A stretch of 52,039 nt of DNA. It comes from an uncultured Candidatus Saccharibacteria bacterium. Lineage in GTDB: Bacteria > Patescibacteriota > Minisyncoccia > Minisyncoccales > GWA2-38-27. The notes beneath the pieces are model-generated. The model did no database searches and had not been told where the DNA came from. It saw only the letters and a list, made by a program, of their open reading frames with translations. The stretch covers positions 1-52,039 of the forward strand of contig CAZDXV010000003.1 of the NCBI GenBank assembly GCA_964509645.1. The letters are read 5' to 3'. Each line of letters begins with the position of its first letter. Within the stretch, counting starts at the first letter, position 1. Below are positions 11,702 through 49,000 of this stretch, in pieces. The position numbers were made by a program, and so were the translations under genes.

Positions 11702-11705
11702 CTTT

Positions 11706-11714: not shown

Positions 11715-11720
11715 ACTGTA

Positions 11721-17947: not shown

Positions 17948-18154
17948 TGTTTTTAGAAGTAAAAATATAACTATTTTCTATTCTCTAATATTCAAGTATA
18001 GCATGTCAATCCTAAAAGTAAATGAACTTAAAATTTTCTTTTTTGTTAACAACCTGTTAATTAGCTGTGGATTTTTCAAAGAAACTTTTCAAAAGAATTG
18101 ACCTATTCAGAGTTTAATATTATACTGGAACATTACATCGATAATCTAAAAATT

Positions 18155-18289: not shown

Positions 18290-18290
18290 A

Positions 18291-19533: not shown

Positions 19534-19978
19534 TTTTAGAGATATAAAAAAAGAAACAGAAGAATTTTTTAAAAGAGCAAAGCTCAATATTTCTTTAGAG
19601 GTTAAGAGGTCTAAAGAAGAAAGTATTTCGGTGGAAATCAGGACAGAAGAGCCAAAGCTTCTGGTGGGTCATCAGGGGCAAGCTTTGGCTGATATTCAAA
19701 AACTTCTTAATCTTTTTTTAATGAAGAAATTTCCAGCGCAGAGATTTTTTGTTAATCTCGATGTAAACGGATACAAGGAAAAGAAAGCAGAATATCTAAG
19801 AGAAGCTGCCAGAACAGCAGCAGACGAAGCAGTTATTTCCGGCCAAGAACAAAAGCTCGGCCCTTTACCCGCTTTTGAAAGAAAGGTTATACATATGGAG
19901 TTGTCTGAAAGGAATAATGTTGAAACAGAAAGTGCAGGAAAAGAGCCCGAAAGAAGCGTTGTTATAAGGCCTCTTTAA
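19526..19978 (+). CDS. Jag/KhpB-like RNA-binding protein (KH + R3H)
   Basis: Position after yidC. LLVGHQGQALADIQKLLN (KH-like) and a C-terminal R3H-like segment. The stop overlaps the stop of the convergent gene at 19975. Confidence 0.6.
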   Translation: MDNFRDIKKETEEFFKRAKLNISLEVKRSKEESISVEIRTEEPKLLVGHQGQALADIQKLLNLFLMKKFPAQRFFVNLDVNGYKEKKAEYLREAARTAADEAVISGQEQKLGPLPAFERKVIHMELSERNNVETESAGKEPERSVVIRPL

Positions 19979-26709: not shown

Positions 26710-27147
26710 CTAGCTGCCTTTTAGATGGTAATAAACAGCTAAGGTCCAGAAGGGGGCAAAATCTCCCACAAAGGGGATTATTTCTCCTAGAAAAGCGAGG
26801 CCAAGTTTTTTCCCTATCTTTTTAGCTATTTTTTTCGTCAACTTATTTGCTCCCTTAGACAGGACAACTCCTCCAGAGGGGCTTAAGAGCATCAGGCCTC
26901 CTATAAACACTATGCCGATAATATCAAGGATATAGGAAATAGGAATCCCTATTCCAAAAAAACTTAAAACAAAAACAACAAGCCCTACCAAATCCAAGAC
27001 AATAGCCAGTAAAAACAGGATAATCCCGTACAGGCTTAAGAAATTTCCTATCTTTTGTATTTCATGAGCTGTTTCTTCTGCTCTATCCTTTGGTTTTTCT
27101 TCTCGGGTGTTTTCAGAAAGATTTTCTTCTTTTTGATTTTCTGGCAT
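26710..27147 (-). CDS. Small polytopic membrane protein (145 aa, acidic N-terminus, 3 TM, basic amphipathic C-terminal segment), function unknown
   Basis: Hydrophobic segments LSLYGIILFLLAIVLDLVGLVVFVLSFFGIGI and ILDIIGIVFIGGLMLL. Start abuts the VirB4-like gene stop. Confidence 0.5.
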   Translation of the reverse strand: MPENQKEENLSENTREEKPKDRAEETAHEIQKIGNFLSLYGIILFLLAIVLDLVGLVVFVLSFFGIGIPISYILDIIGIVFIGGLMLLSPSGGVVLSKGANKLTKKIAKKIGKKLGLAFLGEIIPFVGDFAPFWTLAVYYHLKGS

Positions 27148-31566: not shown

Positions 31567-31968
31567 TTATTTTATTTTGAGTCTGGTGGAAAGATCTTTA
31601 AGCTTGCTTCTTTCTGCCAGCTTGGGTTCTTTCTTCTCTATTTCTTTTTCAATTGTCTGCTCCCTTCTTCTTTTTATTTTAGGAGGGCTCGTTTTTTTCT
31701 CCCAAAGATAAACTTTAGGCTCTGTTAAGAAAGAGAAAAAGTTTTTGATTACAATAGGCAAAGGAGTCTTCTTTATCTTTACGAAAGCTAAAGAGAAAGC
31801 TATTCCCATGATAAAAGCAGCTGAAACAATAAAGGTTGTAAAAGATACGGTAAAATACAGGAAAAGGCAGAGGCCTCCAGCAACACCTACAAAAACAAAC
31901 TGTTTAAAAGTAAAAGGACCTACTATTTTCGCTTCTCTTTCTATAAATTGTGGAATTGTAAACTGCAT
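31567..31968 (-). CDS. PrgI/VirB3-like small membrane protein (2 TM) preceding VirB4
   Basis: MQFTIPQFIEREAKIVGPFTFKQFVFVGVAGGLCLFLYF has the PrgI-family pattern (IP..I...KI.G.T.RQF......). Two TM helices and a basic C-terminal tail. Position immediately upstream of the VirB4 genes, as in Gram-positive type IV secretion operons. Confidence 0.5.
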   Translation of the reverse strand: MQFTIPQFIEREAKIVGPFTFKQFVFVGVAGGLCLFLYFTVSFTTFIVSAAFIMGIAFSLAFVKIKKTPLPIVIKNFFSFLTEPKVYLWEKKTSPPKIKRRREQTIEKEIEKKEPKLAERSKLKDLSTRLKIK

Positions 31969-37207: not shown

Positions 37208-37607
37208 TAATGTATGTCTCCTTTTTGATGCAATTTATAAAAGCTCCTATCTTGTTTTTTTAAATCTTGTAAGCACCTTTTTGTTTAAAGATTTCATTTT
37301 CTTCTTTAAGTCTACTAAAATAAATCTCTTTTGTCTATTTTTTAAGAACCTATTAACAAGTTTTCCACATAGTTTTTGACAGCCCTAAGATAAGGGGTAA
37401 AATAAATTAAGAAATTGCTGAAGCCAATAAAAAACCGTTCTAAAATATTTATTCCCCTCGTTTAGCTTTATCATTCCAGCTACATCAGAGCTCAACAATC
37501 TAAAGAGAGTTCTCTGCTCCTTCAGAAAAAACTCTTAAGAGCCTCTAAAAGAAAATTTCTTTAAGAAGATGTCTAATATTCCACTACAATAACGGAAAAT
37601 GTAGGTA

Positions 37608-38330
37608 ATGTACTTATTCTTAGGGCTTAAAAAAATGATAAACGAAAAAAGGTTTTCTATATTAATACCGGCTTTTAACGAAGAGAAAAACATTCTTCCG
37701 TTGTATAATTCTCTTAAGAAAAATCTTAGCCAGATTGATTACGAAATTATTTTTATTGACGATGGTTCTACGGATGATACTCGCAAATCCTTAAAGGAAA
37801 TTAAAGACAAAAAAGTTAGGGTTATAGGTTTTAAAAAAAACAAAGGAAAGTCCCTCGCTCTTTTTTACGGCATTAAAGAAGCAAGAAGTGAAATCATAGC
37901 CACTATTGATGCGGATTTACAGATTAATCCCAGAGATGTTATTTTTCTTTTTAAAAAGTTAAAGAGAAAAAATTGTGATCTTATTTGCGGTTGGCGCTAC
38001 AAAAGAAAAGATAAGCTTTCTAAGAAGATTTTTTCTTGGGCGGGTAATATCTTGATAAATACGGTTTTTCACCTCAAAATCCACGATAATGATTGTCCTC
38101 TAAAAGTGTTTAAAAAATCTTGTTTTGATGGGTTCGTTTTTTTTGAAAACTTTCATCGGTTTATTCCCCCTTTGCTTAAAAATAAAGGTTATAAAATTTG
38201 CGAGGAAAAAATAGATCACTATCCGCGCCTTTACGGCAAGTCCAAATATGGTATTATAAACAGAGTTATTGGGAACCTGAAGACTCTTATTAAATTAAAG
38301 TATAAAATTGTTTCTGGAAAATGGAGCTAA
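37608..38330 (+). CDS. Family-2 glycosyltransferase (polyprenyl-phosphate mannose/glucose synthase, Dpm1/GtrB-like)
   Basis: FSILIPAFNEEKNI...EIIFIDDGSTDDT...DADLQ motifs of GT2 DPM1-like enzymes. Likely real start at MINEKRF (37635). Confidence 0.75.
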   Translation: MYLFLGLKKMINEKRFSILIPAFNEEKNILPLYNSLKKNLSQIDYEIIFIDDGSTDDTRKSLKEIKDKKVRVIGFKKNKGKSLALFYGIKEARSEIIATIDADLQINPRDVIFLFKKLKRKNCDLICGWRYKRKDKLSKKIFSWAGNILINTVFHLKIHDNDCPLKVFKKSCFDGFVFFENFHRFIPPLLKNKGYKICEEKIDHYPRLYGKSKYGIINRVIGNLKTLIKLKYKIVSGKWS

Positions 38331-38593
38331 ACTTTTGGATTATTTTCGGTTTTGCTGCTCAAGGCTGTTTTTTTATGAGGTTCTTTCTTCAATGGATAGC
38401 CTCTGAAAAAAAGAAAAAAAGCGTAATGCCTGTCTATTTCTGGTATTTTAGCTTGGCCGGAGGAGCAGGTCTTTTTATCTACGCTATTCATATAAAAGAT
38501 ATTGTTTTTATTCTTGGGCAAGGCTTGGGCATATTTTTTTATCTGCGCAATCTAATATTAATCTACAAAGAGAAGAATAAAAACTCTTTTTAA
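38321..38593 (+). CDS. Small 2-3 TM membrane protein, LAB_N (lipid-A-biosynthesis N-terminal domain)-like, partner of the GT2
   Basis: FGFAAQGCFFMRFFLQWIASEKKKKSVMPVYFWYFSLAGGAGLFIYA resembles the PF07578 pattern (..RF..QW..SE...S..P..FW..S..G). Confidence 0.45.
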   Translation: MELNFWIIFGFAAQGCFFMRFFLQWIASEKKKKSVMPVYFWYFSLAGGAGLFIYAIHIKDIVFILGQGLGIFFYLRNLILIYKEKNKNSF

Positions 38594-38607
38594 GGAGATT
38601 TTTAAAA

Positions 38608-39471
38608 ATGGGGGACAAAACAAAAATAGGTATAATTGGAATGGGTTTTGTCGGTAAAATTACCTCAAAAGCTTTTTCAAAAGCATGTGAAGTTTTTCCC
38701 TATGATAAGTATAAAATTCGTTATTCTAAAAAAGAAGATCTTAAGAAGGCAGATATGATTTTTATCTGCGTACCGACCCCCTTAGATGAGAAAAACGGCA
38801 ATGTGATGGATCTGTCTGCTATTTACGAATCAATGGATTTAATAAGTTCTCTTTTTTCAAAAAAAGGCCCCCTAGTAGTAATTCGTTCAACTTTTGTTCC
38901 CGGAACCACAGATTTTCTTGAAAAAAAGTATCCCAACCTTCAATTCGTTGTCAATCCAGAGTTTTTAAGAGAAAAGAGCAGTGTCCAGGATTTTTTAGGC
39001 TCTAGCAGGATTGTTATCGGGGCTAAAAACAAAAGGCAATCTAAGCCCTTGGAATCTCTTTACAGGAAAATTATTCCTAATGCTGAATATATCAAAACTG
39101 ATCCTAAAACAGCTGAGAGCATAAAATGCGCTTCCAATCTTTTTTTAGCAGGACAAATTGCTTTAGCTAACGAGATTTATCAAGTTTGCCAAGTCTTAAA
39201 TGTGAATTATGATTTTTTAAAGAAAACATTGTTGCTTGATAAAAGAATTGCTAGGAATATAGATGTTCCAGGTCCCGATGGCAACTTGGGATTTGGCGGG
39301 AAGTGTTTTCCCAAGGATGTTAGGGCGATGATTTCTTGTTCAGAAAAAAAGGGGTATGACCCGGTTTTACTAAAGAAAATATGGAAATTTAACCAAGAGA
39401 TTCGAGGCAAAAAAGACTGGCGTGATATACCGGGAGCTGTTTCCGAGAATAAAAAGTTTAGGAACAGCTAA
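38608..39471 (+). CDS. UDP-glucose/GDP-mannose dehydrogenase-family protein lacking the C-terminal UDP-binding domain
   Basis: Rossmann GIIGMGFVGK, NPEFLREKSSVQDF, catalytic-Cys motif GFGGKCFPKD. Only 287 aa versus ~400-440 for full-length enzymes. Confidence 0.6.
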   Translation: MGDKTKIGIIGMGFVGKITSKAFSKACEVFPYDKYKIRYSKKEDLKKADMIFICVPTPLDEKNGNVMDLSAIYESMDLISSLFSKKGPLVVIRSTFVPGTTDFLEKKYPNLQFVVNPEFLREKSSVQDFLGSSRIVIGAKNKRQSKPLESLYRKIIPNAEYIKTDPKTAESIKCASNLFLAGQIALANEIYQVCQVLNVNYDFLKKTLLLDKRIARNIDVPGPDGNLGFGGKCFPKDVRAMISCSEKKGYDPVLLKKIWKFNQEIRGKKDWRDIPGAVSENKKFRNS

Positions 39472-39472
39472 A

Positions 39473-40987
39473 ATGCTTATTGGTTTTTTAAGAAAAAATA
39501 AACACCTAATTATTGCTCTTTTTTTGGTGTTATTTTTTTTAACAATAAATATATTTACCTTAAAGAATTATGGCGAAACAATAGACGAAGCTTTTTCTGT
39601 AATGCGGGGAAAGAGAACAATAGAATATATCTCAAAAGTTTTTGAAACAGGCGATTTCAGTTTTGAAATATGGAACAAACAAATAGAATCTCACCCGCCC
39701 TTTTTTGCTACTATTAATCACTTATTTTCAATTTTTGGAAGAAAGTATCTTGGACTAGGCTACATCGATTCTTGCCACCTTCTTATTGTAATAACATACT
39801 CTATAGGTTTGTTTTTCCTTTTTCTTCTTGCCAGATCTATGCTTGGCGATAAAATAGGCCTCTATGCTTTAGTTTTTACAATGCTTTATCCTCGGTTAAT
39901 TGCTCATTCCCACTACAACCAAAAAGATATTCCGGTTATGGTTCTTATGATAATCTCTTTGTATTTTCTTTATTCTTCTTTTAAAAGTAAAAAAAGATAC
40001 CTGCCGATTTTAGCCGGTCTCTTTGCCGGGATGAGTATTGCTTCTAAGATAACAGGAGTTTTTATAGTACCGATTATCTTTTCAGCTTTAATTTTTTACT
40101 GGATATTTAAAAAAAGGCCTCCTTCTAAAAGAATTCTGACAAAGTTAGCTGTTTTTCTGCTCTTTGCGGGAATTTCAATATTTATTTTATGGCCCTATAT
40201 GTGGGGGGATCCTCTTTTTCTGGTAAAGTCTTTGAGTCATTTTTCAGGAGAATTTACCTATACAAAAACCATTTACTTTGGAACAACCTATCTTGCCAGT
40301 GAAGTTCCCTGGCACTATGTTCTTTTTTCTGTCTTTGTTATGACGCCGATAATTGTTTTAGTGTTGTCTCTAGTTGGATTTTACAAGCTTTTAAGAAGAA
40401 ATCTTCTGGAGTTTTTTATTCTTTTTTTCTGGTTTTTCATCCCCATAGTAGTATTTATAGGCTTTGTTGATTTAAGATATAGCATGAACAGGCACCTTTT
40501 CTTTATTGTTCCTTCTTTAACTATTGCTGCCGGGGTTGGCTTAGATCGATTTTTATCTAAAATAAGAGAAAACAGCAAAAAAACAGCCCTAATAGTCCTT
40601 TTTATTATAATTGTTTTTCTATTAAGAGAGGTTGTTATTATTCATCCCTTTGAGCAGACTCATGTTAATGGTTTGGTGAGACTGTTGGTGCCGGACAATC
40701 TCGAGAAGGAATTTCTTCTTGCTCATTGGGGCTCTGTTTACAGAAAAGGCAACGAATGGATAAACGAAAACGCCGAACCAGGTTCTCGCATTTGTTTTTC
40801 TGGGCCGCAACATGTTACTTGGAATCTTCCTAAAAGAGAAGATCTTACTTTTGGATGTGACGAGAAAAGTGATTATTTCCTAATGGCATCCTGCTATGGC
40901 TCAGAATATGATTATCCTATAGTCCACAAAATATCAATTTATGGAAAGACCGATATATTCTATATCAAATCAAACAAAGATAATTAG
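39473..40987 (+). CDS. GT-C fold polytopic membrane glycosyltransferase (ArnT/PMT-like)
   Basis: More than 10 TM helices, a periplasmic-loop acidic residue near TM1 (ETIDEAF), and a C-terminal soluble domain. Starts 1 nt after the upstream stop. Confidence 0.5.
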   Translation: MLIGFLRKNKHLIIALFLVLFFLTINIFTLKNYGETIDEAFSVMRGKRTIEYISKVFETGDFSFEIWNKQIESHPPFFATINHLFSIFGRKYLGLGYIDSCHLLIVITYSIGLFFLFLLARSMLGDKIGLYALVFTMLYPRLIAHSHYNQKDIPVMVLMIISLYFLYSSFKSKKRYLPILAGLFAGMSIASKITGVFIVPIIFSALIFYWIFKKRPPSKRILTKLAVFLLFAGISIFILWPYMWGDPLFLVKSLSHFSGEFTYTKTIYFGTTYLASEVPWHYVLFSVFVMTPIIVLVLSLVGFYKLLRRNLLEFFILFFWFFIPIVVFIGFVDLRYSMNRHLFFIVPSLTIAAGVGLDRFLSKIRENSKKTALIVLFIIIVFLLREVVIIHPFEQTHVNGLVRLLVPDNLEKEFLLAHWGSVYRKGNEWINENAEPGSRICFSGPQHVTWNLPKREDLTFGCDEKSDYFLMASCYGSEYDYPIVHKISIYGKTDIFYIKSNKDN

Positions 40988-42321
40988 CTTAGGAAGCGTA
41001 TTATAGGGCCATATATTTTATCAAGGATATTTTCTCCAAGAGGTAATCCGTAGATTAAGGGAGCGAGTAAAAGGAAAAACAAAACAATAGAGACCAAGAA
41101 CGCTAGAGAAAAGTAAGCAGGTAGACGCTCTTTAATAAATTTCTCGTAAATAATAGAGAGAACGATTATTCCAAAAAGAAGAGATGGCAGATAATGATAA
41201 AGAAAAGTTACTCTGGTTATTGCCAAAAAAGGAATTAGATTTAAGAAGAAGCCAGCCGTAAAAAAATAAACAGAAGAAGGGAGTTTTTCTCTCAGCTTTT
41301 TTTTAAAAAAGAAAACAACAGCTGTTGCTATTCCAGCCAGAATGCTCCACCAGATTAAGGGATTAGCTATAAGATAAATGTTAGCGGTTTTAGAATCCAT
41401 CTTTTTTGACCAGTACCATATAGAGCCTTTTCCTAGGATCCATTGATGCCACCCGCTACCGAAAGGGTGCCCCGCCTCTAGCTCGGCACTATGCCTATGC
41501 ATAGTTTTATTAAGTTCTATAAACTTTTCCAAGTCTCCCATGCTTTCTTTGCCCTCTAAACTTTCTTGGAATCTTGGGCTCATAAAAGCGTCTCCTGTTC
41601 CGGGCTTGTATAAGATTTTAAAATGGACAAAGAAAACGGCAAAATAGGTTATAAGAAAAACTAAAGCCAGAAGCATTAGTTTTAGAACCGCATCTTTATT
41701 TTTAATTGCTTCTAAAAAGGTAAAAATAAAAATTAGCCCAAAAAAGGTGAGTCCGGTCCACTTAATGCTAAAAGAAAGAGTTGCAAAAAAAACAGCCGCC
41801 AGAAGAATGTATAGTTTTCTTTTTTTCTGCCAGTCAAAAAGCAAATATAGAGATAAGAAGCCAAAAAATAAAAGAAAAATATCCACTAAAACAAATTTTG
41901 ATTGAGCTAATAGAGTTGAGCTAAAGAGAGTTAAAAAGCCCGCCAAAAAAGCGGTTTTTTTAGAAAGGTCTATTTTAAGGGCCAGCTTATAAATTAGGAT
42001 TACCAATAAGGTTCCTGTTAGGGCGGGCAAAAATCTTAAAAGGAATATTTCACCGCTGTTTACAGCTTCTCCTATATTAGAAAAAGCAGCTTCGGGACTT
42101 AGACCAAAAATTCTTACAAAACCGGCAATAAGCATTTTCCCCAAAGGAGGGTGAATATCAAAATAGTACTGATTGTTAAAATAATAGCTCACAAATTTCC
42201 CAAAATGAACTTCGTCAAAGACAGCTTCTGAAGGATAAGCTAAAAATATAAAGCGAGTTAAAAAAGCTGACGCTGTCAAAAAGAAGAGAGGCCATCTTTT
42301 TTTAATATATTTAATTATCAT
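40984..42321 (-). CDS. GT39-family protein O-mannosyltransferase (PMT)-like membrane protein
   Basis: Loop-1 signature DEVHFGKFVSYYFNNQYYFDIHPPLGK matches the DE..F......YF.DVHPPL.K motif of Pmt enzymes. Polytopic. Confidence 0.65.
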   Translation of the reverse strand: MIIKYIKKRWPLFFLTASAFLTRFIFLAYPSEAVFDEVHFGKFVSYYFNNQYYFDIHPPLGKMLIAGFVRIFGLSPEAAFSNIGEAVNSGEIFLLRFLPALTGTLLVILIYKLALKIDLSKKTAFLAGFLTLFSSTLLAQSKFVLVDIFLLFFGFLSLYLLFDWQKKRKLYILLAAVFFATLSFSIKWTGLTFFGLIFIFTFLEAIKNKDAVLKLMLLALVFLITYFAVFFVHFKILYKPGTGDAFMSPRFQESLEGKESMGDLEKFIELNKTMHRHSAELEAGHPFGSGWHQWILGKGSIWYWSKKMDSKTANIYLIANPLIWWSILAGIATAVVFFFKKKLREKLPSSVYFFTAGFFLNLIPFLAITRVTFLYHYLPSLLFGIIVLSIIYEKFIKERLPAYFSLAFLVSIVLFFLLLAPLIYGLPLGENILDKIYGPIIRFLS

Positions 42322-44218
42322 TTACTTTAAAAATTTTAGTGCCGTTTATTTTTAAGAAAAAAGAGTAGTTATTCGCGTAGAACTCTTCATTAGCTTTAAA
42401 TTTACTTCTTTCGCTGGGGCCTATTAAAACATAATCCACCCCGTAGTTTTTTAGCAGTTTTTTAGATCTCTCTTCTCCTCGAAACATAATCTCTATTTCT
42501 TTAAATCTCTCTGATATGTCTATGCCATAAGTCCAAAGCCATCCTCCGTAGCCTGCTACTATCTGTCTCCCTGTTAGGCAGGGGAGATAATGATTGTGGT
42601 TGTCTGATGTAAGAAAAACAGAATCAACCTCTGTTTTTTCCCGGATAATTTCAGCTTTTTTAATATCTTCCTGCGAGATAAAAAGGTATCCTTTTTTAGT
42701 CCACAGGCGGGCAACATCCAAAAAGGTAGAAAAGGTCATTGTAAATACAAAGATTATTACCAGAAACTTAAAAGCGATGTCTTTTTTCCAAAACTTTATC
42801 AAAAACACAGAAATAATTATAGTTGTGAGCAGAAACCAGTAGGTGGATATTTTTATGTTGTCGTAGTCGTGGGGCTGAAAAAGAAAGAGATTAGTGATAA
42901 CGAATAAAGAGAAAAAAGAAAGATATATTTTTTTAAGTTCTTTATTAATAAAAAAGAAACTAATAGGGAAAAGAACAAGAAAACCCCCCAGGTTCTTAAA
43001 CCAGAAGTAGAACCAATTTTCTTCTTTGGCCATCCATCCCAATCGGAAAGTTATACCGCTTTCTCCTCCGGGAAAAAGAAGTAATACCTGCCATAAACCG
43101 AGGAGTATTATGGGAAAGAAAAAAGCGGTCAATTTTCTAAAGGTTTTTTTCTGTTGCGAAAGAAAAATTATAAGAAAGAAGGAAGTAATGGATACAGCAA
43201 TCAAAGAGTGGATATGAAGAGCAGGCAGAAAAGAAGCTGCCACCCCGCCCAATGCTAAAAGCTTAAAGCTGTTTTCTTTCAGTCCTTTGTAAACTGAGGA
43301 TAAGATAATTATGGCCAAAGGGAATCCCATTGTGAGAGCTCTCTGAGGCAGTAAAAGCGCTTGCATGAAGTTTGTCCAATGGATTCCTTTATCTGCCAGG
43401 TGGGTGAAAGTTGTATGAGAGTTTTTAAGATACCCCCCAATTTCCAGTAAATTCATTCCATTTACATCCCTTAGAAAGTAAAAAAAACCTAAACCGCTTC
43501 CAAAAAGAAACAGAAAAAGAGACAAGACAGCGACACTTCTTTTTTTAGTTATTCTTAAGATAAAATAAAAGAGGAGAACTATTAAAGAGATTGAATAAAA
43601 GAACCCAGGTAAAATCATAGAAAGGATCCTGCTCTCCCCTAATTTCATTAAAAGAGCTGATTGGAAGTCGGCCATAAAAGTATAAGAAAAGGATTCTCCG
43701 ACAAAAATAGGGTTTTTAAAAGAAAGCTGATTTGAGTGAAAAAAATGGGAAACATAAGTGTTGTGAGCTGCCCAGTCCCCCCAAACGCCTCCGATAGCTA
43801 TAGTAAAGAGACCTTCGTCTGTTTGAAAAAAAACCTTAGGCCAGACAATAGAAAAAAATAGAAAAAATACTATGAGAATAATAAGAAAGGGCAGGGCTTC
43901 TCTGCTGTACAGCCTCTTTTTAAAATCTTTTAAGTCATCCAGAAAGTTTCTTTTTATTCTCTCTTTTCTTTTTAAAAAAAAGAATATGGCTGGAGCAAAA
44001 ATAAAAAGAAAAGAGATTAATATAATTTCTCTATTGAATCCCCCAAAAAAAGAAAAGACGAAAGAGGAGAAAGTTAGAATTACGCTTCCCAAAACCAAAG
44101 CCCAAGCTGTTTTTTCTTCAAAAAGCAAATTTATTCTTAAAAAGTAAAGCAGAGAAAGTCCTATAGCAAGAGAAAATATGAAAAAAATCAGGGCTATCAT
44201 GTTTATAAATAATAGCAA
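42311..44218 (-). CDS. Large polytopic membrane protein with C-terminal soluble domain, probable third GT-C-like glycosyltransferase
   Basis: About 14 hydrophobic segments and a ~130-aa C-terminal hydrophilic domain. Overlaps the PMT-like gene start/stop. Confidence 0.35.
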   Translation of the reverse strand: MLLFINMIALIFFIFSLAIGLSLLYFLRINLLFEEKTAWALVLGSVILTFSSFVFSFFGGFNREIILISFLFIFAPAIFFFLKRKERIKRNFLDDLKDFKKRLYSREALPFLIILIVFFLFFSIVWPKVFFQTDEGLFTIAIGGVWGDWAAHNTYVSHFFHSNQLSFKNPIFVGESFSYTFMADFQSALLMKLGESRILSMILPGFFYSISLIVLLFYFILRITKKRSVAVLSLFLFLFGSGLGFFYFLRDVNGMNLLEIGGYLKNSHTTFTHLADKGIHWTNFMQALLLPQRALTMGFPLAIIILSSVYKGLKENSFKLLALGGVAASFLPALHIHSLIAVSITSFFLIIFLSQQKKTFRKLTAFFFPIILLGLWQVLLLFPGGESGITFRLGWMAKEENWFYFWFKNLGGFLVLFPISFFFINKELKKIYLSFFSLFVITNLFLFQPHDYDNIKISTYWFLLTTIIISVFLIKFWKKDIAFKFLVIIFVFTMTFSTFLDVARLWTKKGYLFISQEDIKKAEIIREKTEVDSVFLTSDNHNHYLPCLTGRQIVAGYGGWLWTYGIDISERFKEIEIMFRGEERSKKLLKNYGVDYVLIGPSERSKFKANEEFYANNYSFFLKINGTKIFKVNDN

Positions 44219-44276
44219 AAATGGGTTTTAGAAACAACGGAAATAAAAAAGGGCGACCGAAATCGCCCATTAAGGA

Positions 44277-45737
44277 TCAGGAGATTCTCTCAAGAATAGT
44301 CCGGGCTTTCTCGGCCCAGAGAGAGTCGTTCTCCTGAATGATTTTTTCAAGGTATTTTCTTGCCCTTTCCTCTTTTCCTGCTCTTAGAAAATTCTTGGCC
44401 ATGTTGAACCAATTTTGGCAGTCCCGCTCTTTTTTCTGGACTTCGAGGATACTTCCGACTACCGGGTCTGTCTTAAGAGAGAAATAATGTTTCTGTACGA
44501 TCGGGTAACGATCCGCCTCCTGAAACCGAATGAGATAATGTTCGTAAATCTTAAAAGCTTTCAAGTAATCTTTTTTTCCTTCAGCTTGCCGTCCCTCTTT
44601 CTCTAGATAGTTTGCTCTGTCGTTAAGTTTTGCTCTGGCAATTATTTTCTGTTTTTCGGGGCTTCTTAAAAGGGGAACCAGGGCTCTGCTGGCTCTCTGT
44701 TCTATTTCTTCGGATCCTCTAAACAGGCTAGAAACCTTTTTTAACGCTTTAATAGCATCTTGGTATCTTTCTTCTTGAGACGCTTTTTCTGCCTCAGAAA
44801 AAAGGTCTTCAGCTTGTTTCTTAAGCTCATCAGCACTTTTTCCGGCTTCTTTTGTTAAGTCATAATCACCGGGAATAGAGGAAGCGTTTTTGAATTTCTC
44901 GTAAGCAATACCTAGATCGCCTTTTTCTTGGTTTTTCTTTGCTTGATCTAGGTTGCTTCTTGCTTCTCTCAAGGGACCGAATTCTTCAAAAAAACGGCTT
45001 ATTGTTTTGGTTTTTGGGTAGCTACCGTGGCCACCTGGATAAGTTTCAAAGATAACAGCCGCACCTTTTTGCTGATAATAACTTGCTGCTTTCTCAGCCC
45101 ACCAGTGATTGGGGTCGCTTTCGCCAGCCCCTATGTAGATGGGCATTCTTTGGAAACCGTTTCTTTTGGGGCTGTTTGGCGCCGCAATGTGAAATCCGCC
45201 GAAAAGATTCTTTGCGCTTAAGCCTGGAACAGAGGGTCTTTCGTGAAGATGCTCATACCGGCCGGCGCCTAGAATCATTAGGCCAGCCCAGAGACTAGGG
45301 TTTTCTTCCATGATGCCGCTGACAAGGAATCCGCCAGCGCTATTACCGGCCAAAAAAACATAGTTCGGATGAAGCGAGAACTTATCCATCATTTTTCCGA
45401 ACAGTTTTTTGGCATTTGCAACATCTTCGTCGATTTTGCTGTTGGTGTCCATGCTGTTCCAGTAATAGTCAGTGCCAATAAGAACAAAATTCTTACTTTC
45501 CACAAAGTTTCTGTAGGGAAGAGTTGTTGGACCTCCTCCTCTTCCGTGGTAGCAAATAACAGTAGGCCACAGCTTTTCTTTGGTGTAGTCGGGGGGGAGG
45601 TAAACCGCGCATCGATCCGCCGGTCCGGCATAGAGGCTCTTGACTGAGAACTCTTTCCCTACGGGAAATTCCTCTGCGACTGCCGGAATCGTTGTCAGGA
45701 TTCCTGCGAGCACTACGATAATCGTTGAATACCGCAT
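44277..45737 (-). CDS. Secreted alpha/beta-hydrolase (esterase/depolymerase-like, GNSAGG nucleophile elbow) fused to C-terminal TPR-like repeats; GC-rich foreign-looking gene
   Basis: Signal peptide MRYSTIIVVLAGILTTIPAVA. HGRGGG oxyanion-like motif, GNSAGG (GxSxG), and a later GGHGS. C-terminal helical repeats. GC content is visibly much higher than in neighbours. Confidence 0.65.
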   Translation of the reverse strand: MRYSTIIVVLAGILTTIPAVAEEFPVGKEFSVKSLYAGPADRCAVYLPPDYTKEKLWPTVICYHGRGGGPTTLPYRNFVESKNFVLIGTDYYWNSMDTNSKIDEDVANAKKLFGKMMDKFSLHPNYVFLAGNSAGGFLVSGIMEENPSLWAGLMILGAGRYEHLHERPSVPGLSAKNLFGGFHIAAPNSPKRNGFQRMPIYIGAGESDPNHWWAEKAASYYQQKGAAVIFETYPGGHGSYPKTKTISRFFEEFGPLREARSNLDQAKKNQEKGDLGIAYEKFKNASSIPGDYDLTKEAGKSADELKKQAEDLFSEAEKASQEERYQDAIKALKKVSSLFRGSEEIEQRASRALVPLLRSPEKQKIIARAKLNDRANYLEKEGRQAEGKKDYLKAFKIYEHYLIRFQEADRYPIVQKHYFSLKTDPVVGSILEVQKKERDCQNWFNMAKNFLRAGKEERARKYLEKIIQENDSLWAEKARTILERIS

Positions 45738-46060: not shown

Positions 46061-49000
46061 ATGAAAAAAATATTCTCAAGAAAAATTATTTTTGCTAGTG
46101 TAATTCTAACGGGCATACTTCTAATGATTAATATTTTAAGCCCTATTTCAGGATATGGGCCCTTAGGATCAGGGATAGCATTAGCTTACTCTAGTTGCGC
46201 TGGGGCTTGTGGAGAGATCCTTGATGATTGTGCGTGTGATGAGGAATGCTTTGATTATTATGATTGCTGTCCTGATGTTTGTACTTATTGTGATCATCCT
46301 CAGTGTGACACCTCACATTCTAGTTGCGAAGGGGCTTGTGGAGAGATCCTTGATGATTGTTCGTGTAGCAACGCGTGCCATTTGAGCGATGATTGCTGTT
46401 TTGATGCTTGTATTCATTGTCCCTTTTTGTACGGGTGCGGGGGCGATGGTATTGATCCTTCACCCTCACCCTCACCTTCACCCTCGCCTACGCCTACGCC
46501 TACGCCTACGCCTACTCCCGAATCAGGAGGTGTTTGCGGCAATAATATTGTAGAATATTCTAATTATGAAGAATGTGATGGCACTAGTGATGATGCCTGT
46601 CCGGAAGGGGTGGGATGTATTCCTCCCGGACAACCCAACGAATGCTTGTGTGAGGTGGTAAAATGTGATGATTGGTGTAAAACCCAGACTTATACAGGAG
46701 ATGATGGTCAATCGCACAATTATTTAAGTGGACAATGTTCTGCGGCCATGCCTGATAGCTGGTGGGAAGAAGGGCGAAATTATGGGATTAATAGAGTAAA
46801 TCTTGCCCAAAAAGAAGACTCTTTGTTTAGTCGCGCTTTGGCTGCTATTGGGTTTTTGGGAAAAGACAATAGTGAAATGGCCAGTAAAGTTAATATTGTT
46901 GATTGTAAAGATAATTTTAAAAGTGGAAGTGTAAAGTTTGAACAGCTTTCGACAAAAAGCCACAAAGTTAAGGCAGGAGAAGAAATAATATTTAAAGGCG
47001 CTTTAAGCAATAAAAACAATTTCCCTGTCGCAGAGGGTTTAGTTTTTGTTAAGGTGCATAGATTGAAAGAAGATGCAATATCCGCAAGTCGCGACTTCTT
47101 GGTTGATGAGTTCGTGGCTTTGAAAGATATAAATCTTTGGCCAAACGAAAGAAAGGATTTCAATTTTTCTTATAAAATTCCAGAAAGTGCTCTTGAAGGA
47201 GAATATTCGATTTCTTTCTACTTTGCCTCTTCCGAACACTTTCAAATAAGCGGTATTACCTTTCTCCCTGGCTTATCTGAAAAATCAATAAGATTAAGCG
47301 TTGAAGGCTCTAAAGACGGGTTTTGGATAGATGGGGATACTATTATTGTAAACGATAAAGAGGTAAAAAGTCCTACTTGGGTTCCAGTTATTCAAAAAGA
47401 AGAAAGAGCTGTTTTTTCTTTTCTCCTTAAGAGTACTCTCGGTTCCGGAACAGCAAAAATTTCAGCTGATATATATAACTTTGATTTGCTCAGTGAAGAC
47501 AATAAAATTGAAAGACATCACAAAGAAAAGACAGTTTCTTTAGAATCTCAAGAGCAGATAGTTGATTTTACTTATACAAGGTTAGCTCCTGGAAGCTATG
47601 TTTTAAAAATAAAAGCTCAAGGGGAAAACCAAGAATCTCTCTTAAGCTTAAGATTTACGGTTCTGGGTAGCACAGCAAGAATAATTAATTCTTCTCTAAG
47701 TAATTTTCCCCTTAAAAAGGGAGAAACTTTCAGTTTAGCTACTTGTTTTTCTAATGCTACAGATGTAGGCATATATTTTGATGATTTTGCGGGAAGGATT
47801 TTATTGGAGCTTAGAGATAAGGACTCAGGGGACTTGCTGGCAGAAATGGCTCATGAAGGAGATATAACTTTGAAACCAACCGGATTAAATCAGCAATTTA
47901 AAGCAAGAGGCTATAGCGATAATGTGATTTTAATTTCCCGGATTTATAATGCTCAAGGTGAATTATTGGATGAAGCGAAAACAGAATATAATGCTGATAA
48001 TTTTTCAGGAGAAAGAGGAAAAGAGCCCATTAATATAATTAAGATTGCTTTGATTGTTTTGGGAATTGTTATAGGAATATCTTTAGTAGTTGTAATTATT
48101 AAAAAAGGAATAAAAGGACAAAGAAAAAAATCCTTGCTAGTAGTTTTAGTTTTGTTTGGCGGTTTGATAGTGTTTTTAGGTGTATATGCTTCTGTCTCAT
48201 TCCCCGCAAACTTTGAATGCATAGGCTCAGATCAGCCTTGTTGCCAATACCTTTATGATTATTGGGGGGACCAAGATTTTGCCTGGGAGGATATTGAGAT
48301 AACTCTTCCTTTGGCTTCTATGTTTAAAACAAGCCCTACCGTTGCGAAGATGTCGAATGATCATACAGTATTAGAAGGAGGCACTGTTACCAATATTTCA
48401 TCTGAAGATAGTATTTATGACATTCATCCTTCTCCCGGCGGTGACTATATAGTAGAAGATCTTTTCTTTGCTACCCCAGCCATTAATTGGGTGGACGATA
48501 TTGGAACCGACGGAAGTCTTGTCTATTATTCTGATCCAAGTAGAACTTGTAAAAACTATGATGACGTTGATGATTTTGATTGTCCGCCTAATACCCCTTG
48601 GTTTGTCGGACAGAATGCAAATGAGTTCTCTGATTGGTGCAACGAGCAACAAAACATTTCCTATCATCCTAAAGAAACAGCTTTTCAGTTACCAGAAGAA
48701 TCAACTCAAACTGTTCCTTATACTTCTTTTGGTTTAATTCCTACAGGTTTCTATGGGTATAATGATTCAGTTTGTGCTGGAACCCAAGTGACCTGCGAAA
48801 GAACAATGAATATCACCGTTTCCGATGATTCTAAAATGGTTTGTGAACTAGAAAACAGCAGTACGGGAGAAAGCTGCAGCACGGATGGAACGGGGTCTTG
48901 CTCTTTGAAAGCTGTAGAAATAAACTCCCACTGTTATCCAAGAGAAGAAGTATCTGACGAAGAAGTCCAGATAACCACAAGGCAATATTTTGATTGCTTC

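What the first reader, a model, noticed from the sequence alone, without database searches (positions are those of the whole stretch)
37608..44218. Protein O-mannosylation-like glycosylation island (Dpm1-like GT2 + GT39 PMT-like + two further GT-C membrane proteins)
The GT2 has the DPM1-type motifs, and the 445-aa membrane protein carries the GT39 loop-1 signature DEVHFGK...YFDIHPPLGK. Pairing a polyprenyl-phosphate-mannose synthase with a PMT is the actinobacterial Ppm1/Pmt protein-O-mannosylation system. The many Ser/Thr/Pro-rich surface proteins here (PS/PT linkers) would be plausible substrates. The system looks uncommon outside Actinobacteria.
Basis: partly seen in the sequence, partly recalled or inferred. 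Interest (0 to 1): 0.6.

Follow-up and report, generated by a model that had tools for sequence, protein, structure and literature searches.

The report
Two adjacent membrane glycosylation gene modules
An uncultured ultra-small (Patescibacteria) bacterium carries a genuine relative of the eukaryotic and mycobacterial protein O-mannosyltransferase next to a separate, widespread three-gene sugar-transfer cassette; the two look like independent systems rather than one dedicated protein-mannosylation island, and the finding is fairly ordinary.

Summary
The genes are real, but 37608-44218 holds six genes, not four. The 445-aa protein is a true GT39 PMT without MIR domains: Pfam PMT 5.6e-42 plus PMT_4TMC 1.5e-31. 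Its family profile matches only eukaryotic Pmt structures (E 4e-84), with no ArnT or OST match. The residues shown essential in M. tuberculosis PMT are conserved. The "island" splits into two units. (A) The + strand carries a GT2 without TM helices, a 90-aa LAB_N membrane protein, a short NDP-sugar dehydrogenase and a PMT_2-type GT-C. GT2, LAB_N and a large membrane protein recur together in Fusobacteriota, Alphaproteobacteria and other metagenomic contigs. This block is missing from the two closest syntenic relatives. (B) The - strand carries a GT-C with no Pfam family (fold nearest ALG12/AftA/STT3/DPY19) that overlaps the PMT start. This pair is kept in the relatives. The GT2 is not specifically Dpm1-like, and the GT2 type fused or adjacent to PMTs in these bacteria is a different one. 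At least 505 species genomes carry this PMT, nearly all of the best 80 being Patescibacteria, so it is not rare. The window has only one PS/PT-linker protein. Sugars and acceptors are untested. Verdict: new members of known kinds, moderate-to-low interest.

The parts
37376..37403 (+). Promoter-like site (TTGACA-16-TAAAAT) in the 400-nt gap upstream of the GT2. It is a possible promoter of the + strand cassette.
   Evidence: 11 of 12 consensus matches, the best in the region. This is a consensus match only.
37608..38330 (+). GT2 (240 aa) with no TM helix. Predicted polyprenyl-phosphate sugar synthase of the ArnC/GtrB/DPMS superfamily, in the LAB_N-linked subtype.
   Evidence: PF00535 at 1.6e-33. 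PDB: ArnC 6.7e-19, DPMS 1.5e-18, GtrB 3.7e-17, covering residues 14-221. NCBIfam best hits are PgfS 2.3e-27 and ArnC 7.5e-25. No hydrophobic segment. 31-38% identity and 124-160 bits to GT2s that precede LAB_N in other phyla. 56% identity to the GT2 in L081/L082.
38321..38593 (+). LAB_N protein (90 aa, three predicted helices). Its start overlaps the GT2 stop by 10 nt. Candidate third component: a polyprenyl-P-sugar flippase, or a membrane partner of the TM-less GT2.
   Evidence: PF07578 at 5.8e-29, with a weak MtN3_slv hit at 0.0032. Three helices in the AF2 model. 73-78% identical copy beside the GT2 and GT-C orthologues in L081/L082. 41-56% identical homologues directly after a GT2 in Cetobacterium, Ilyobacter, Azospirillum, Thalassospira, Pelagovum and Paenibacillus.
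38608..39471 (+). Short (287 aa) nucleotide-sugar dehydrogenase. It has the NAD-binding and central domains and the catalytic-Cys motif GFGGKCFPKD, but lacks the C-terminal UDP-binding domain.
   Evidence: PF03721 at 4e-25 and PF00984 at 7.8e-21, with no PF03720. TIGR03026 scores 191.7 bits against a cut-off of 189.8. The short form is a populated family: most of the best 150 cluster representatives are 260-300 aa. Fusions to NTP_transferase and to Epimerase exist.
39422..40987 (+). GT-C glycosyltransferase (521 aa, PMT_2 type). An EL1 motif GETIDEAF follows TM1. Predicted acceptor-specific transferase of the + strand cassette.
   Evidence: PF13231 at 3.2e-12. About 8 hydrophobic segments. Only 9 homologues found. 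The 58% identical orthologue keeps GETIDEVY and lies between the GT2 and LAB_N orthologues. Only distantly related to the neighbouring PMT (26% over 185 aa).
40984..42321 (-). MIR-less GT39 protein O-mannosyltransferase homologue (445 aa). Its stop overlaps the convergent GT-C 521 stop by 4 nt.
   Evidence: PF02366 at 5.6e-42 and PF16192 at 1.5e-31. C. thermophilum Pmt4 6.2e-43 and ScPmt1 3.1e-39. Family profile 4e-84, matching only PMTs. D36-E37 aligns with ScPmt1 D77-E78, K142-x4-D147 with R184-x4-D189, and R370-x2-F373 with R649-x2-F652; these are invariant or nearly so in 35 homologues. The matching MtPMT residues are essential (PMC12331936). The alignment skips the roughly 215-residue MIR segment.
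42311..44218 (-). U635: a GT-C-fold membrane protein (635 aa; 629 aa from the start NCBI uses) with no family assignment. Its stop overlaps the PMT start by 11 nt. It has a C-terminal soluble alpha/beta domain.
44251..44268 (-). Terminator-like hairpin with a T-run, between the esterase/TPR gene and U635. It suggests U635-PMT is transcribed separately from the upstream gene.
   Evidence: 7-bp stem with 5 GC pairs, followed by TTTTTTATTT. This is a consensus match only.
44277..45737 (-). Secreted alpha/beta-hydrolase (esterase-like) plus TPR protein. It is syntenic with U635-PMT in the closest relative. Membership of the system is doubtful.
   Evidence: Weak esterase and TPR hits. N-terminal hydrophobic segment. 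60% identical orthologue upstream of U635-PMT in L001.
46061..50320 (+). 1419-aa Cys-rich surface protein with the only PS/PT linker in the window (residues 131-153, nt 46457-46516). Candidate O-glycosylation substrate.
   Evidence: Orthologues with long PT repeats lie next to U635-PMT in L001 and L003. There is no general enrichment of such proteins near PMTs: 2/303 versus 7/880.

Best explanation
The interval holds two neighbouring but separable systems that add sugars to cell-envelope molecules on the outer face of the membrane. Both would use polyprenyl-phosphate-linked sugars as donors. The organism is a Patescibacteria (CPR) bacterium.

Module A (+ strand, 37608-40987) is a three-component cassette with one accessory enzyme.
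- The short dehydrogenase oxidises a nucleotide sugar, probably to a uronic acid (inferred).
- The GT2, which has no TM helix, transfers a sugar from a nucleotide sugar to polyprenyl phosphate at the inner face. Homology to ArnC/GtrB/DPMS is shown; the sugar is unknown.
- The 3-helix LAB_N protein either helps the lipid-linked sugar cross the membrane or anchors the GT2 (inferred from conserved gene linkage only).
- The PMT_2-type GT-C transfers the sugar to an unknown envelope acceptor (inferred).
This cassette is an accessory, variable insertion at this locus.

Module B (- strand, 40984-44218) is U635 plus a MIR-less GT39 PMT.
- The PMT most likely transfers a hexose, by analogy mannose, from polyprenyl-P-sugar to Ser/Thr of secreted or surface proteins. 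Family membership and catalytic residues are shown; the activity, sugar and acceptors are inferred.
- The neighbouring PS/PT-linker surface protein is a plausible substrate.
- U635 is a second, independent GT-C enzyme with its own conserved loop Asp. It may act on the same or related acceptors (inferred).

The donor synthase for module B is not identified. It could be the module A GT2, the only GT2-like sequence in this 52-kb contig, or a GT2 encoded elsewhere in the genome.
For: PMT identity:
- Pfam PMT plus PMT_4TMC.
- Eukaryotic Pmt structures at 6e-43 for the single sequence and 4e-84 for the profile; nothing else matches.
- DE, K/R-x4-D and R-x2-F motifs are conserved and match residues essential in MtPMT.

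Two units rather than one:
- L001 (PMT 70% identical) and L003 (51%) keep surface protein / U635 / PMT / YebC / RuvC / Nudix (L001 also EstTPR, TyrRS and PBP1a) but lack GT2, LAB_N, the dehydrogenase and GT-C 521.
- That slot holds a PT-rich secreted protein in L001 and a sulfatase-family membrane protein in L003.

Module A as a conserved cassette:
- GT2 (56%), GT-C (58%) and LAB_N (73-78%) lie together in L081/L082.
- A short GT2, LAB_N and a large membrane protein occur together in 6 of 7 annotated plasmid contexts. That protein is annotated 'GT39 family' in Cetobacterium, Ilyobacter, Azospirillum, Thalassospira and Paracoccus, and 'hypothetical' with no Pfam match in Pelagovum.
- In the unannotated Paenibacillus record, dehydrogenase-like, GT2 and LAB_N matches lie together.
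- The Cetobacterium order is GT2 - LAB_N - dehydratase-family - UDP-Glc/GDP-Man dehydrogenase - GT-C.
- The window GT2 scores 124-160 bits against these GT2s, versus 45-99 bits against PMT-linked GT2s.

Dehydrogenase: the short form is a real family and occurs fused to sugar-nucleotide enzymes.

U635: confident GT-C fold. It overlaps the PMT start by 11 nt. It is adjacent to the PMT in 12 of 80 PMT loci from labelled groups as different as Wildermuth-, Yanofsky- and Moraniibacteria, and a true PMT lies directly downstream in 5 of 80 U635 loci.

The general model of GT2 synthase, flippase and GT-C is established in PMC11127046. Ser/Thr-rich-region protein glycosylation by GtrB or PgfS with GT-C enzymes in streptococci is shown in PMC12041528.
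Against: - There is no biochemical or glycoproteomic evidence. Neither the sugars nor the acceptors can be read from sequence.
- The window GT2 is the only GT2-like sequence found on the 52-kb contig (tblastn of both GT2 types against the whole window; Pfam on most larger ORFs). One synthase feeding all three GT-Cs cannot be excluded.
- The relatives that lack module A at this locus might carry it elsewhere.
- The U635-PMT linkage is lineage-restricted: 12 of 80 from the PMT side; 5 clear and 4 weak of 80 from the U635 side; 0 of 4 distant homologues.
- LAB_N has no demonstrated function. Its single-sequence model was weak (pLDDT 69) and the fold search gave nothing significant.
- The dehydrogenase lacks the UDP-binding domain and is absent from the L081/L082 version of the cassette.
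- PT-linker proteins are not generally enriched near PMTs.
Confidence: 0.65

Rival explanations
1. This is one integrated protein O-mannosylation island: the GT2 makes polyprenyl-P-mannose, LAB_N flips it, and the PMT, GT-C 521 and U635 all use it to mannosylate or extend O-mannose on Ser/Thr/Pro-rich surface proteins.
For: - All six genes are contiguous with overlapping or near-touching ends.
- The GT2 is the only GT2-like sequence on the contig.
- It is as similar to the archaeal DPM synthase (1.5e-18) as to ArnC.
- GT2-PMT fusions and adjacencies exist in Patescibacteria (P0062; L005, L010, L075), so the synthase and the PMT can be linked.
- A PIG-V-like protein (a family that uses Dol-P-Man) sits beside the orthologous GT2 in L081.
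- A PS/PT-linker protein lies nearby.
Against: - The cassette is absent from the closest syntenic relatives, which keep U635-PMT.
- The PMT-linked GT2s are a different subtype (motif DTQCGFK; 45-99 bits to the window GT2), whereas the LAB_N-linked GT2s score 124-160 bits.
- The same cassette occurs in Gram-negative and Gram-positive bacteria with its own large membrane protein and no PMT-type (PF02366) gene annotated alongside.
- The adjacent dehydrogenase points to an oxidised sugar rather than mannose.
Confidence: 0.2
2. Neither module glycosylates proteins. All three GT-Cs, including the PMT homologue, decorate cell-wall polymers or membrane lipids such as teichoic-acid-like polymers or lipoglycans. 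This would resemble ArnT, YfhO or the Rgt enzymes in other bacteria.
For: - In the other phyla the LAB_N cassette often sits beside two-component regulators and NDP-sugar-modifying enzymes, as lipid A and LPS modification loci do.
- L003 has an LtaS/EptA-like sulfatase-family gene in the same slot.
- PT-linker proteins are not enriched near PMTs.
- In most Patescibacteria the PMT sits among housekeeping genes.
Against: - For the PMT itself, every characterised PF02366 and PF16192 enzyme I know of modifies protein Ser/Thr (background knowledge).
- The peptide-facing EL4 C-terminal Trp and the R-x2-F motif are conserved.
- The three genomes of this lineage all place a PT/PS-rich surface protein within one or two genes of the PMT.
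Confidence: 0.1
3. U635 is not an independent enzyme. It is a structural partner of the PMT, analogous to the Pmt1-Pmt2 heterodimer, or a peptide-presenting subunit that replaces the missing MIR domain.
For: - 11-nt overlap suggests translational coupling.
- Recurrent adjacency, always on the same strand in the close clade.
- The C-terminal soluble domain resembles the AglB C-terminal domain.
Against: - U635 keeps an invariant Asp and His in its first large outside loop, as active GT-Cs do.
- Most family members are not next to a PMT.
- Most PMT loci lack it.
Confidence: 0.05

Closest known systems
Protein O-mannosyltransferases, CAZy GT39: eukaryotic Pmt1/2/4 and POMT1/2, and actinobacterial Pmt such as M. 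tuberculosis Rv1002c
   Same: - Same Pfam architecture (PMT plus PMT_4TMC).
- DE motif in loop 1, second Asp, and R-x2-F/Y in loop 5.
- Like the bacterial enzymes, it lacks the MIR domains.
   Different: - At 445 aa it is more compact than the actinobacterial model (530 positions).
- It scores only 40.6 bits, over residues 49-161, against the NCBIfam actinobacterial Pmt equivalog (cut-off 800). It scores 151 bits against a single fungal Pmt4 sequence, so it is not an orthologue of the actinobacterial enzyme.
- K replaces R in the R-x4-D motif.
- Activity, sugar and acceptors are untested.
Three-component extracytoplasmic glycosylation systems: GtrA/GtrB/Gtr* in Shigella and Salmonella, CsbB/GtcA/YfhO in Bacillus and Listeria, ArnC/ArnEF/ArnT (PMC11127046, PMC8035078)
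   Same: - A GT2 polyprenyl-P-sugar synthase, a small membrane protein and a GT-C transferase are encoded together.
- The GT2 is homologous to GtrB and ArnC.
- The GT-C is the divergent, acceptor-specific part.
   Different: - The small membrane protein is LAB_N (PF07578), not GtrA, an SMR-type ArnE/F or a MATE protein.
- The GT2 lacks the two C-terminal TM helices of GtrB and ArnC.
- A short dehydrogenase is inserted in the cassette.
- The host is presumably a monoderm-like Patescibacteria cell without LPS (background knowledge), so the acceptor must differ.
Rhizobial Rgt system: RgtE bactoprenyl-P-GalA synthase plus RgtD/RgtF GT-C GalA transferases (PMC7663294, citing Brown et al. 2013)
   Same: A GT2 lipid-P-uronic-acid synthase feeds ArnT-like GT-Cs. 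A nucleotide-sugar dehydrogenase step is needed upstream, which parallels the dehydrogenase in module A and in the Cetobacterium cassette.
   Different: No homology or orthology to the Rgt proteins was tested here. The acceptor there is lipid A or LPS core. The use of a uronic acid here is only inferred from the neighbouring dehydrogenase.
Streptococcal protein O-glycosylation of Ser/Thr-rich disordered regions: GtrB/PgtC2 and PgfS/PgfM1 (PMC12041528)
   Same: - A GT2 and a GT-C glycosylate Ser/Thr-rich extracytoplasmic regions of surface proteins outside Actinobacteria.
- PgfS is the best NCBIfam hit of the window GT2 (2.3e-27).
   Different: The score is far below the PgfS equivalog cut-off (96 versus 500 bits). 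The GT-Cs there are YfhO-type, not PMT or PMT_2. The sugars there are Glc and GalNAc.
STT3/AglB/PglB oligosaccharyltransferases and the DPY19 C-mannosyltransferase (closest folds to U635)
   Different: - No sequence-level match to the STT3 profile, and a Dpy19 hit in only 1 of 27 members at 0.0062.
- No WWDYG motif, only GY-x-GWLW-x-x-G.

Membership tests
GT39 / PMT family (445-aa protein) | Pfam PMT (PF02366) and PMT_4TMC (PF16192) above the gathering scores | tested here: met
   144.4 bits (cut-off 22.7) and 109.9 bits (cut-off 32.4). The profile of 35 homologues hits only PMT structures at 4e-84 to 8e-67, with no ArnT or OST at E <= 10.
GT39 / PMT family (445-aa protein) | Catalytic DE motif in the first external loop (ScPmt1 D77-E78, MtPMT D74) | tested here: met
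   D36-E37 aligns with ScPmt1 D77-E78 and is invariant in 35 homologues. Its essentiality in MtPMT is reported in PMC12331936.
GT39 / PMT family (445-aa protein) | Second loop Asp (MtPMT D176, R-x4-6-D) and the R-x2-Y/F motif in loop 5 (MtPMT R441/Y444, ScPmt1 R649/F652) | tested here: met
   K142-x4-D147 aligns with ScPmt1 R184-x4-D189. D147 is invariant and K142 is nearly so, with K in place of R. R370-x2-F373 aligns with R649-x2-F652 and both are invariant.
GT39 / PMT family (445-aa protein) | MIR domains in external loop 4 (eukaryotic PMTs only) | tested here: not met
   The alignment jumps from ScPmt1 residue 317 to 534 while the query runs 258 to 264. There is no MIR Pfam hit. Bacterial PMTs also lack MIR (PMC12331936), so this does not exclude membership.
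GT39 / PMT family (445-aa protein) | Orthology to actinobacterial Pmt (NCBIfam equivalog NF058602) | tested here: not met
   40.6 bits against a cut-off of 800, over query residues 49-161 only.
GT39 / PMT family (445-aa protein) | Transfer of mannose from polyprenyl-P-Man to protein Ser/Thr | not testable with these tools
   This needs an enzyme assay, complementation or glycoproteomics.
Dpm1/Ppm1-type polyprenyl-P-mannose synthase (GT2) | Specific clustering with DPM synthases rather than with other polyprenyl-P-sugar synthases | tested here: inconclusive
   ArnC 71.6 bits, PfDPMS 70.5 bits and GtrB 65.9 bits are essentially equal. The best NCBIfam hits are PgfS and ArnC. The closest real relatives are LAB_N-linked GT2s at 124-160 bits. 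The sugar-specificity determinants are not known to me.
Ppm1/Pmt-like coupled system | Conserved association of this GT2 with the PMT | tested here: not met
   A GT2 is adjacent in 4 of 80 PMT loci. Three of those and the P0062 fusion are the DTQCGFK subtype, and the fourth (L059) matches neither type well. The cassette is absent from syntenic L001 and L003.
Three-component extracytoplasmic glycosylation system (module A) | GT2 homologous to polyprenyl-P-sugar synthases | tested here: met
Three-component extracytoplasmic glycosylation system (module A) | GT-C-type transferase encoded with it | tested here: met
   PF13231 at 3.2e-12. The loop-1 DE motif is kept in the orthologue. No structure was predicted for this protein.
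Three-component extracytoplasmic glycosylation system (module A) | Small membrane protein acting as the lipid-linked-sugar flippase | tested here: inconclusive
   LAB_N is not GtrA, SMR or MATE. The case rests on gene linkage, a weak MtN3_slv hit (0.0032) and tandem-duplicated LAB_N in Hymenobacter. The fold test failed.
Three-component extracytoplasmic glycosylation system (module A) | The components co-occur in unrelated genomes | tested here: met
   L081/L082. In 6 of 7 annotated plasmid contexts, GT2 and LAB_N lie with a large membrane protein, annotated 'GT39 family' in 5. Paenibacillus has dehydrogenase, GT2 and LAB_N matches together.
UDP-glucose/GDP-mannose dehydrogenase family (287-aa protein) | NAD-binding and central domains with the catalytic Cys | tested here: met
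   PF03721 and PF00984. TIGR03026 at 191.7 bits, above 189.8. GFGGKCFPKD is read directly from the sequence.
UDP-glucose/GDP-mannose dehydrogenase family (287-aa protein) | C-terminal UDP-binding domain (PF03720) | tested here: not met
   It is absent. The protein ends 20-25 residues after the central domain. The short form is conserved in hundreds of cluster representatives, so it is a variant and not a truncation.
STT3/AglB/PglB oligosaccharyltransferase (U635) | GT-C core plus a C-terminal globular domain | tested here: met
STT3/AglB/PglB oligosaccharyltransferase (U635) | WWDYG motif and a match to the STT3 profile (PF02516) | tested here: not met
   No PF02516 hit in any of the 27 members. 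The conserved C-terminal motif is GY-x-GWLW-x-x-GI, with no Asp.

The most novel reading that the evidence does not exclude
Three readings remain open, and they are independent of each other.
(1) U635 founds an unrecognised GT-C family with an STT3/DPY19-like core and an AglB-like C-terminal domain. In part of the Patescibacteria it works with a MIR-less PMT as a two-enzyme protein-glycosylation unit for surface proteins.
(2) These compact Patescibacteria PMTs are the closest prokaryotic relatives of eukaryotic PMTs. They score far better against fungal Pmt sequences than against the actinobacterial Pmt model. This bears on the unresolved origin of eukaryotic O-mannosylation (PMC4973528).
(3) LAB_N is the missing lipid-linked-sugar translocator, possibly SemiSWEET or PQ-loop-like, of a widespread GT2/LAB_N/GT-C cassette.
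Probability: 0.2. Interest if true: 0.6.

Novelty: new member of a known kind. Interest (0 to 1): 0.35.

Why it matters
Patescibacteria live attached to host cells, and their surface proteins are thought to mediate that contact. A conserved PMT would mean their surface proteins are O-glycosylated, which affects how their adhesins, pili and enzymes should be modelled and expressed. The result also shows that GT39-type PMTs are common outside Actinobacteria, in at least 505 species genomes. It flags two uncharacterised components that could be tested in cultivable bacteria. LAB_N is tightly linked to a TM-less GT2 and a large membrane protein in several phyla. U635 is a GT-C family with no Pfam model. 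As it stands, this is an annotation refinement and not a new mechanism.

Tried and rejected
- The single-protein genome scan for the PMT found nothing. It needed the alignment.
- A literature search for LAB_N, PF07578 and LgmD was swamped by unrelated 'LGMD' and 'labneh' papers. I could confirm only that lgmD exists in the Bordetella lgm cluster and is not essential, not that it is a LAB_N protein, so I dropped that lead.
- My recollection that rhizobial RgtF is a LAB_N-type protein was wrong. It is a GT-C GalA transferase.
- The LAB_N structure from a single sequence was weak (pLDDT 69, pTM 0.41), and Foldseek against the PDB gave no hit below E = 3.7. A PDB sequence search gave nothing. The SemiSWEET/PQ-loop idea rests only on a weak Pfam hit.
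- The afdb50 fold library was not available for U635.
- Sequence-profile searches of U635 against the PDB and Pfam gave only noise, plus weak DUF6798 hits in 11 of 27 members.
- The idea that PT-linker proteins generally accompany PMTs was rejected: 2/303 versus 7/880, p = 1.
- The idea that the 287-aa dehydrogenase is a truncated pseudogene was rejected, because the short form is a large family.
- The idea that U635 always travels with a PMT was rejected.

Full report
**What is there.** The interval 37608-44218 contains six genes, not four.

On the + strand:
- A 240-aa GT2 (37608-38330; PF00535 at 1.6e-33).
- A 90-aa LAB_N membrane protein (38321-38593; PF07578 at 5.8e-29). Its start overlaps the GT2 stop by 10 nt.
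- A 287-aa nucleotide-sugar dehydrogenase (38608-39471; PF03721 and PF00984; TIGR03026 just above its cut-off).
- A 521-aa GT-C of the PMT_2 type (39422-40987; PF13231 at 3.2e-12).

On the - strand, convergent with these:
- A 445-aa PMT (40984-42321; PF02366 at 5.6e-42 and PF16192 at 1.5e-31).
- A 635-aa polytopic protein, "U635" (42311-44218), whose stop overlaps the PMT start by 11 nt. It has no Pfam, NCBIfam or PDB sequence match.

The flanks are housekeeping genes: PBP1a, TyrRS, Nudix, RuvC and YebC on one side, and an esterase/TPR protein and a 1419-aa Cys-rich surface protein on the other. The contig also carries dnaA/dnaN/yidC and a type IV secretion cluster. The closest relatives are metagenome-assembled Patescibacteria.

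**The PMT is genuine GT39.**
- As a single sequence it matches C. thermophilum Pmt4 (6.2e-43), yeast Pmt1 (3.1e-39), Pmt4 and Pmt2, and nothing else in the PDB.
- A profile of 35 homologues (A1) matches the same four proteins at 4e-84 to 8e-67. No ArnT, OST or other GT-C chain appears even at E <= 10.
- In the residue-by-residue alignment, D36-E37 aligns with ScPmt1 D77-E78, K142-x4-D147 with R184-x4-D189, and R370-x2-F373 with R649-x2-F652.
- D36, E37, D147, R370 and F373 are invariant, and K142 nearly so, among the 35 homologues.
- These positions correspond to D74, D176 and R441/Y444 of M. tuberculosis PMT, which mutagenesis showed to be essential (PMC12331936).
- The alignment skips the roughly 215-residue MIR segment of loop 4, as in other bacterial PMTs.
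- The protein is not an orthologue of the actinobacterial enzyme. It scores 40.6 bits, over residues 49-161 only, against the NCBIfam Pmt equivalog, whose cut-off is 800.

**It is common in this lineage.** More than 900 proteins match at E <= 1e-10, typically 440-490 aa. The few named ones come from Parcubacteria, Paceibacterota or Nealsonbacteria. A scan of one genome per species found 505 genomes with a relative. Of the best 80, nearly all are Patescibacteria and one record is titled Nitrospirae. "Uncommon outside Actinobacteria" does not hold here. I found no paper in the searchable library that links GT39 or PMT to this group.

**The island is two units.** I compared all window proteins with the 80 PMT loci by tblastn.
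- LAB_N, the dehydrogenase and GT-C 521 never accompany the PMT.
- A GT2 is adjacent in 4 loci.
- U635 relatives are adjacent in 12 loci, mostly immediately upstream on the same strand.
- The usual PMT neighbours look like redox and pentose-phosphate housekeeping genes, judged by eye from the representative sequences.
- The two closest relatives keep the local synteny: L001 (PMT 70%, PBP1a 86%, YebC 89% identical) and L003 (PMT 51%). Both retain surface protein, U635, PMT, YebC, RuvC and Nudix, and L001 also the esterase/TPR gene, TyrRS and PBP1a.
- Both lack the whole GT2/LAB_N/dehydrogenase/GT-C block. L001 has a PT-rich secreted protein in that slot. L003 has a sulfatase-family (LtaS/EptA-like) membrane protein between U635 and the PMT.
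- The + strand block is therefore a variable insertion at a locus that tends to collect envelope-related genes.

**Module A is a member of a widespread cassette.**
- GT-C 521 is rare, with 9 homologues.
- Its 58% identical orthologue lies on two metagenomic contigs (L081, L082) together with orthologues of the GT2 (56%) and LAB_N (73-78%). The gene order differs, there is no dehydrogenase, and a PIG-V-like GT-C lies upstream.
- Searching LAB_N against annotated plasmids and chromids found 18 records at 41-56% identity.
- In 6 of the 7 annotated contexts I inspected, LAB_N lies with a short GT2 (231-270 aa) and a large membrane protein. That protein is annotated "glycosyltransferase family 39 protein", NCBI's name for PMT_2-type GT-Cs, in Cetobacterium, Ilyobacter, Azospirillum, Thalassospira and Paracoccus. 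In Pelagovum it is a 525-aa hypothetical protein with no Pfam match. The seventh context, Hymenobacter, has LAB_N near a GT39-family gene and an epimerase but no GT2 in view.
- In the unannotated Paenibacillus record, tblastn finds dehydrogenase-like, GT2 and LAB_N matches together.
- The Cetobacterium order is GT2 - LAB_N - dehydratase-family - UDP-Glc/GDP-Man dehydrogenase - GT-C, which closely mirrors the window.
- Several of these loci sit next to two-component regulators.
- The window GT2 scores 124-160 bits (31-38% identity) against these LAB_N-linked GT2s. That is well above its score against ArnC, DPMS or GtrB structures (66-72 bits).
- It is also above its score against the GT2s fused to a PMT (P0062) or adjacent to one (L005, L010, L075, L059), which is 45-99 bits. 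Three of those four adjacent GT2s, and the P0062 fusion, carry a distinct DTQCGFK motif.
- The GT2 has no hydrophobic segment, whereas ArnC and GtrB continue for about 100 more residues (that this extension forms two TM helices is background knowledge).
- The GT-Cs of the different cassettes are not detectably similar to GT-C 521 by tblastn. This fits the rule that the GT-C is the acceptor-specific, fast-diverging component (PMC11127046).

**The dehydrogenase.**
- It has the Rossmann start and the catalytic-Cys motif GFGGKCFPKD, but it ends shortly after the central domain, with no UDP-binding domain.
- This is not a truncation. In an exhaustive search, 530 cluster representatives match at E <= 1e-30, and most of the best 150 are 260-300 aa long.
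- Some relatives are fused to a sugar nucleotidyltransferase (P0169) or to an NDP-sugar epimerase/dehydratase (P0182), which supports a role in nucleotide-sugar metabolism.
- Its presence suggests, but does not show, that the module A sugar is an oxidised sugar such as a uronic acid. The rhizobial RgtE/RgtD/RgtF galacturonosyl system is a functional analogue (PMC7663294).

**U635.**
- With an alignment of 27 homologues, AlphaFold gave pLDDT 91.9 and pTM 0.93.
- Foldseek ranks the DPY19 C-mannosyltransferase (2.3e-8), then yeast and human STT3, AglB, PglB and AftA.
- U635 is therefore a GT-C enzyme of an undescribed family. Its only sequence-level hints are weak DUF6798 hits in 11 of 27 members.
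- D142 and H146 (motif WGDWAAH) are invariant. They lie in the first large loop after a Lys/Arg-rich cytoplasmic segment, where GT-C catalytic residues sit.
- It lacks the WWDYG motif of oligosaccharyltransferases. The close clade conserves GY-x-GWLW-x-x-GI instead.
- Its tie to the PMT is real but lineage-restricted. It is adjacent in 12 of 80 PMT loci from differently labelled Patescibacteria groups. From the U635 side, a true PMT lies directly downstream in 5 of 80 loci, with weaker PMT-like hits in 4 more. None of four distant homologues has one.

**Substrates.** The window has one PS/PT tract in all six frames, in the 1419-aa surface protein two genes from U635. Its orthologues in L001 and L003 carry much longer PT repeats and also lie next to U635-PMT. 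MtPMT prefers proline-rich acceptor sequences (PMC12331936). This is suggestive for this lineage only. Across the 80 loci, such proteins are not enriched near PMTs: 2/303 versus 7/880.

**Mechanism proposed.**
- Module A: dehydrogenase (nucleotide-sugar oxidation, inferred), then GT2 (polyprenyl-P-sugar synthesis; homology shown, sugar unknown), then LAB_N (translocation of the lipid-linked sugar or anchoring of the TM-less GT2; inferred from linkage), then GT-C 521 (transfer to an unknown envelope acceptor).
- Evidence on LAB_N beyond linkage is thin. There is a weak MtN3_slv Pfam hit (0.0032) and a tandem LAB_N duplication in a single Hymenobacter protein, which would fit a unit that works as a dimer. 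The direct fold test failed.
- Module B: the PMT transfers a hexose, by analogy mannose, from a polyprenyl-P-sugar to Ser/Thr of exported proteins. U635 is a second GT-C acting on the same or related targets.
- The donor synthase for module B is not identified. The module A GT2 is the only GT2-like sequence on the contig, so sharing cannot be excluded. The synteny and subtype evidence argue that it is not a dedicated PMT partner.

**Verdict.** These are new members of known kinds: a bacterial MIR-less GT39 and a three-component-type cassette. There are two uncharacterised parts, LAB_N and the U635 GT-C family. Interest is moderate to low, at 0.35.

Noticed in passing
window 27147-30938 (-): The 1263-aa VirB4/TraC/TraG-like T4SS ATPase carries an intein with a LAGLIDADG homing-endonuclease domain (Intein_splicing 2.4e-19, LAGLIDADG_3 6.4e-20). 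It lies in a cluster with PrgI, TrbL/VirB6-like and several T4SS-pilin genes (2176-3045, 11685-13970, 19975-26706, 31567-31968). A bioRxiv title (10.1101/2025.01.22.634366, listed, not read) indicates such a T4SS is described in Patescibacteria.
   Followed up: no
P0161, P0167, P0195, P0197 (relatives of window 38608-39471): Four of the best 150 relatives of the short dehydrogenase are 650-730 aa because an intein with a LAGLIDADG domain interrupts the central domain near the catalytic-Cys region.
   Followed up: partly
L091 4108-4776 (Hymenobacter radiodurans plasmid); also H16 and H18: In Bacteroidota the LAB_N unit is tandemly duplicated within one 222-aa protein, giving two matches in one CDS. 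This recalls the SemiSWEET-to-SWEET duplication and suggests that LAB_N works as a dimer.
   Followed up: partly
L081 4239-4322 and L082 2790-2873: A 28-residue stretch similar to residues 45-72 of the GT2 (43-46% identity, E 2e-4 to 7e-4) lies just upstream of LAB_N, although the intact GT2 is 2 kb away. It may be a remnant of a rearranged GT2-LAB_N pair.
   Followed up: no
window 40984-40987: The convergent genes GT-C 521 and PMT overlap by 4 nt at their stop codons, which leaves no room for a terminator between the two modules.
   Followed up: no
L003 6247-7992: In the syntenic relative, a 581-aa sulfatase-family membrane protein (LtaS/EptA-like, PF00884 at 4.4e-24) is inserted between U635 and the PMT. 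The slot seems to collect envelope-modifying genes.
   Followed up: partly
window 15249-19978: dnaN, dnaA, yidC and a jag-like (KH/R3H) gene mark the probable chromosomal origin region. A roughly 870-nt stretch between dnaA and yidC (17948-18816) contains no ORF of 120 aa or more.
   Followed up: no
L075 (JAJYJJ010000010.1): This record is titled 'Nitrospirae bacterium', but it carries a Patescibacteria-type PMT (39% identity) with U635 and a DTQCGFK-type GT2 adjacent. The bin is probably mislabelled or contaminated.
   Followed up: no
window 44277-45737 (-): A secreted esterase-like alpha/beta hydrolase fused to TPR repeats is conserved upstream of U635-PMT in L001 (60% identity). In the window a terminator-like hairpin at 44251-44268 separates it from U635. 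Its function is unknown.
   Followed up: partly
L087 8527-12019: A distant U635 homologue (P0139) sits near another GT2, a PMT_2+TPR GT-C and a PIG-V-like GT-C. U635-family genes can therefore cluster with other lipid-linked-sugar glycosylation genes even when no PMT is present.
   Followed up: no
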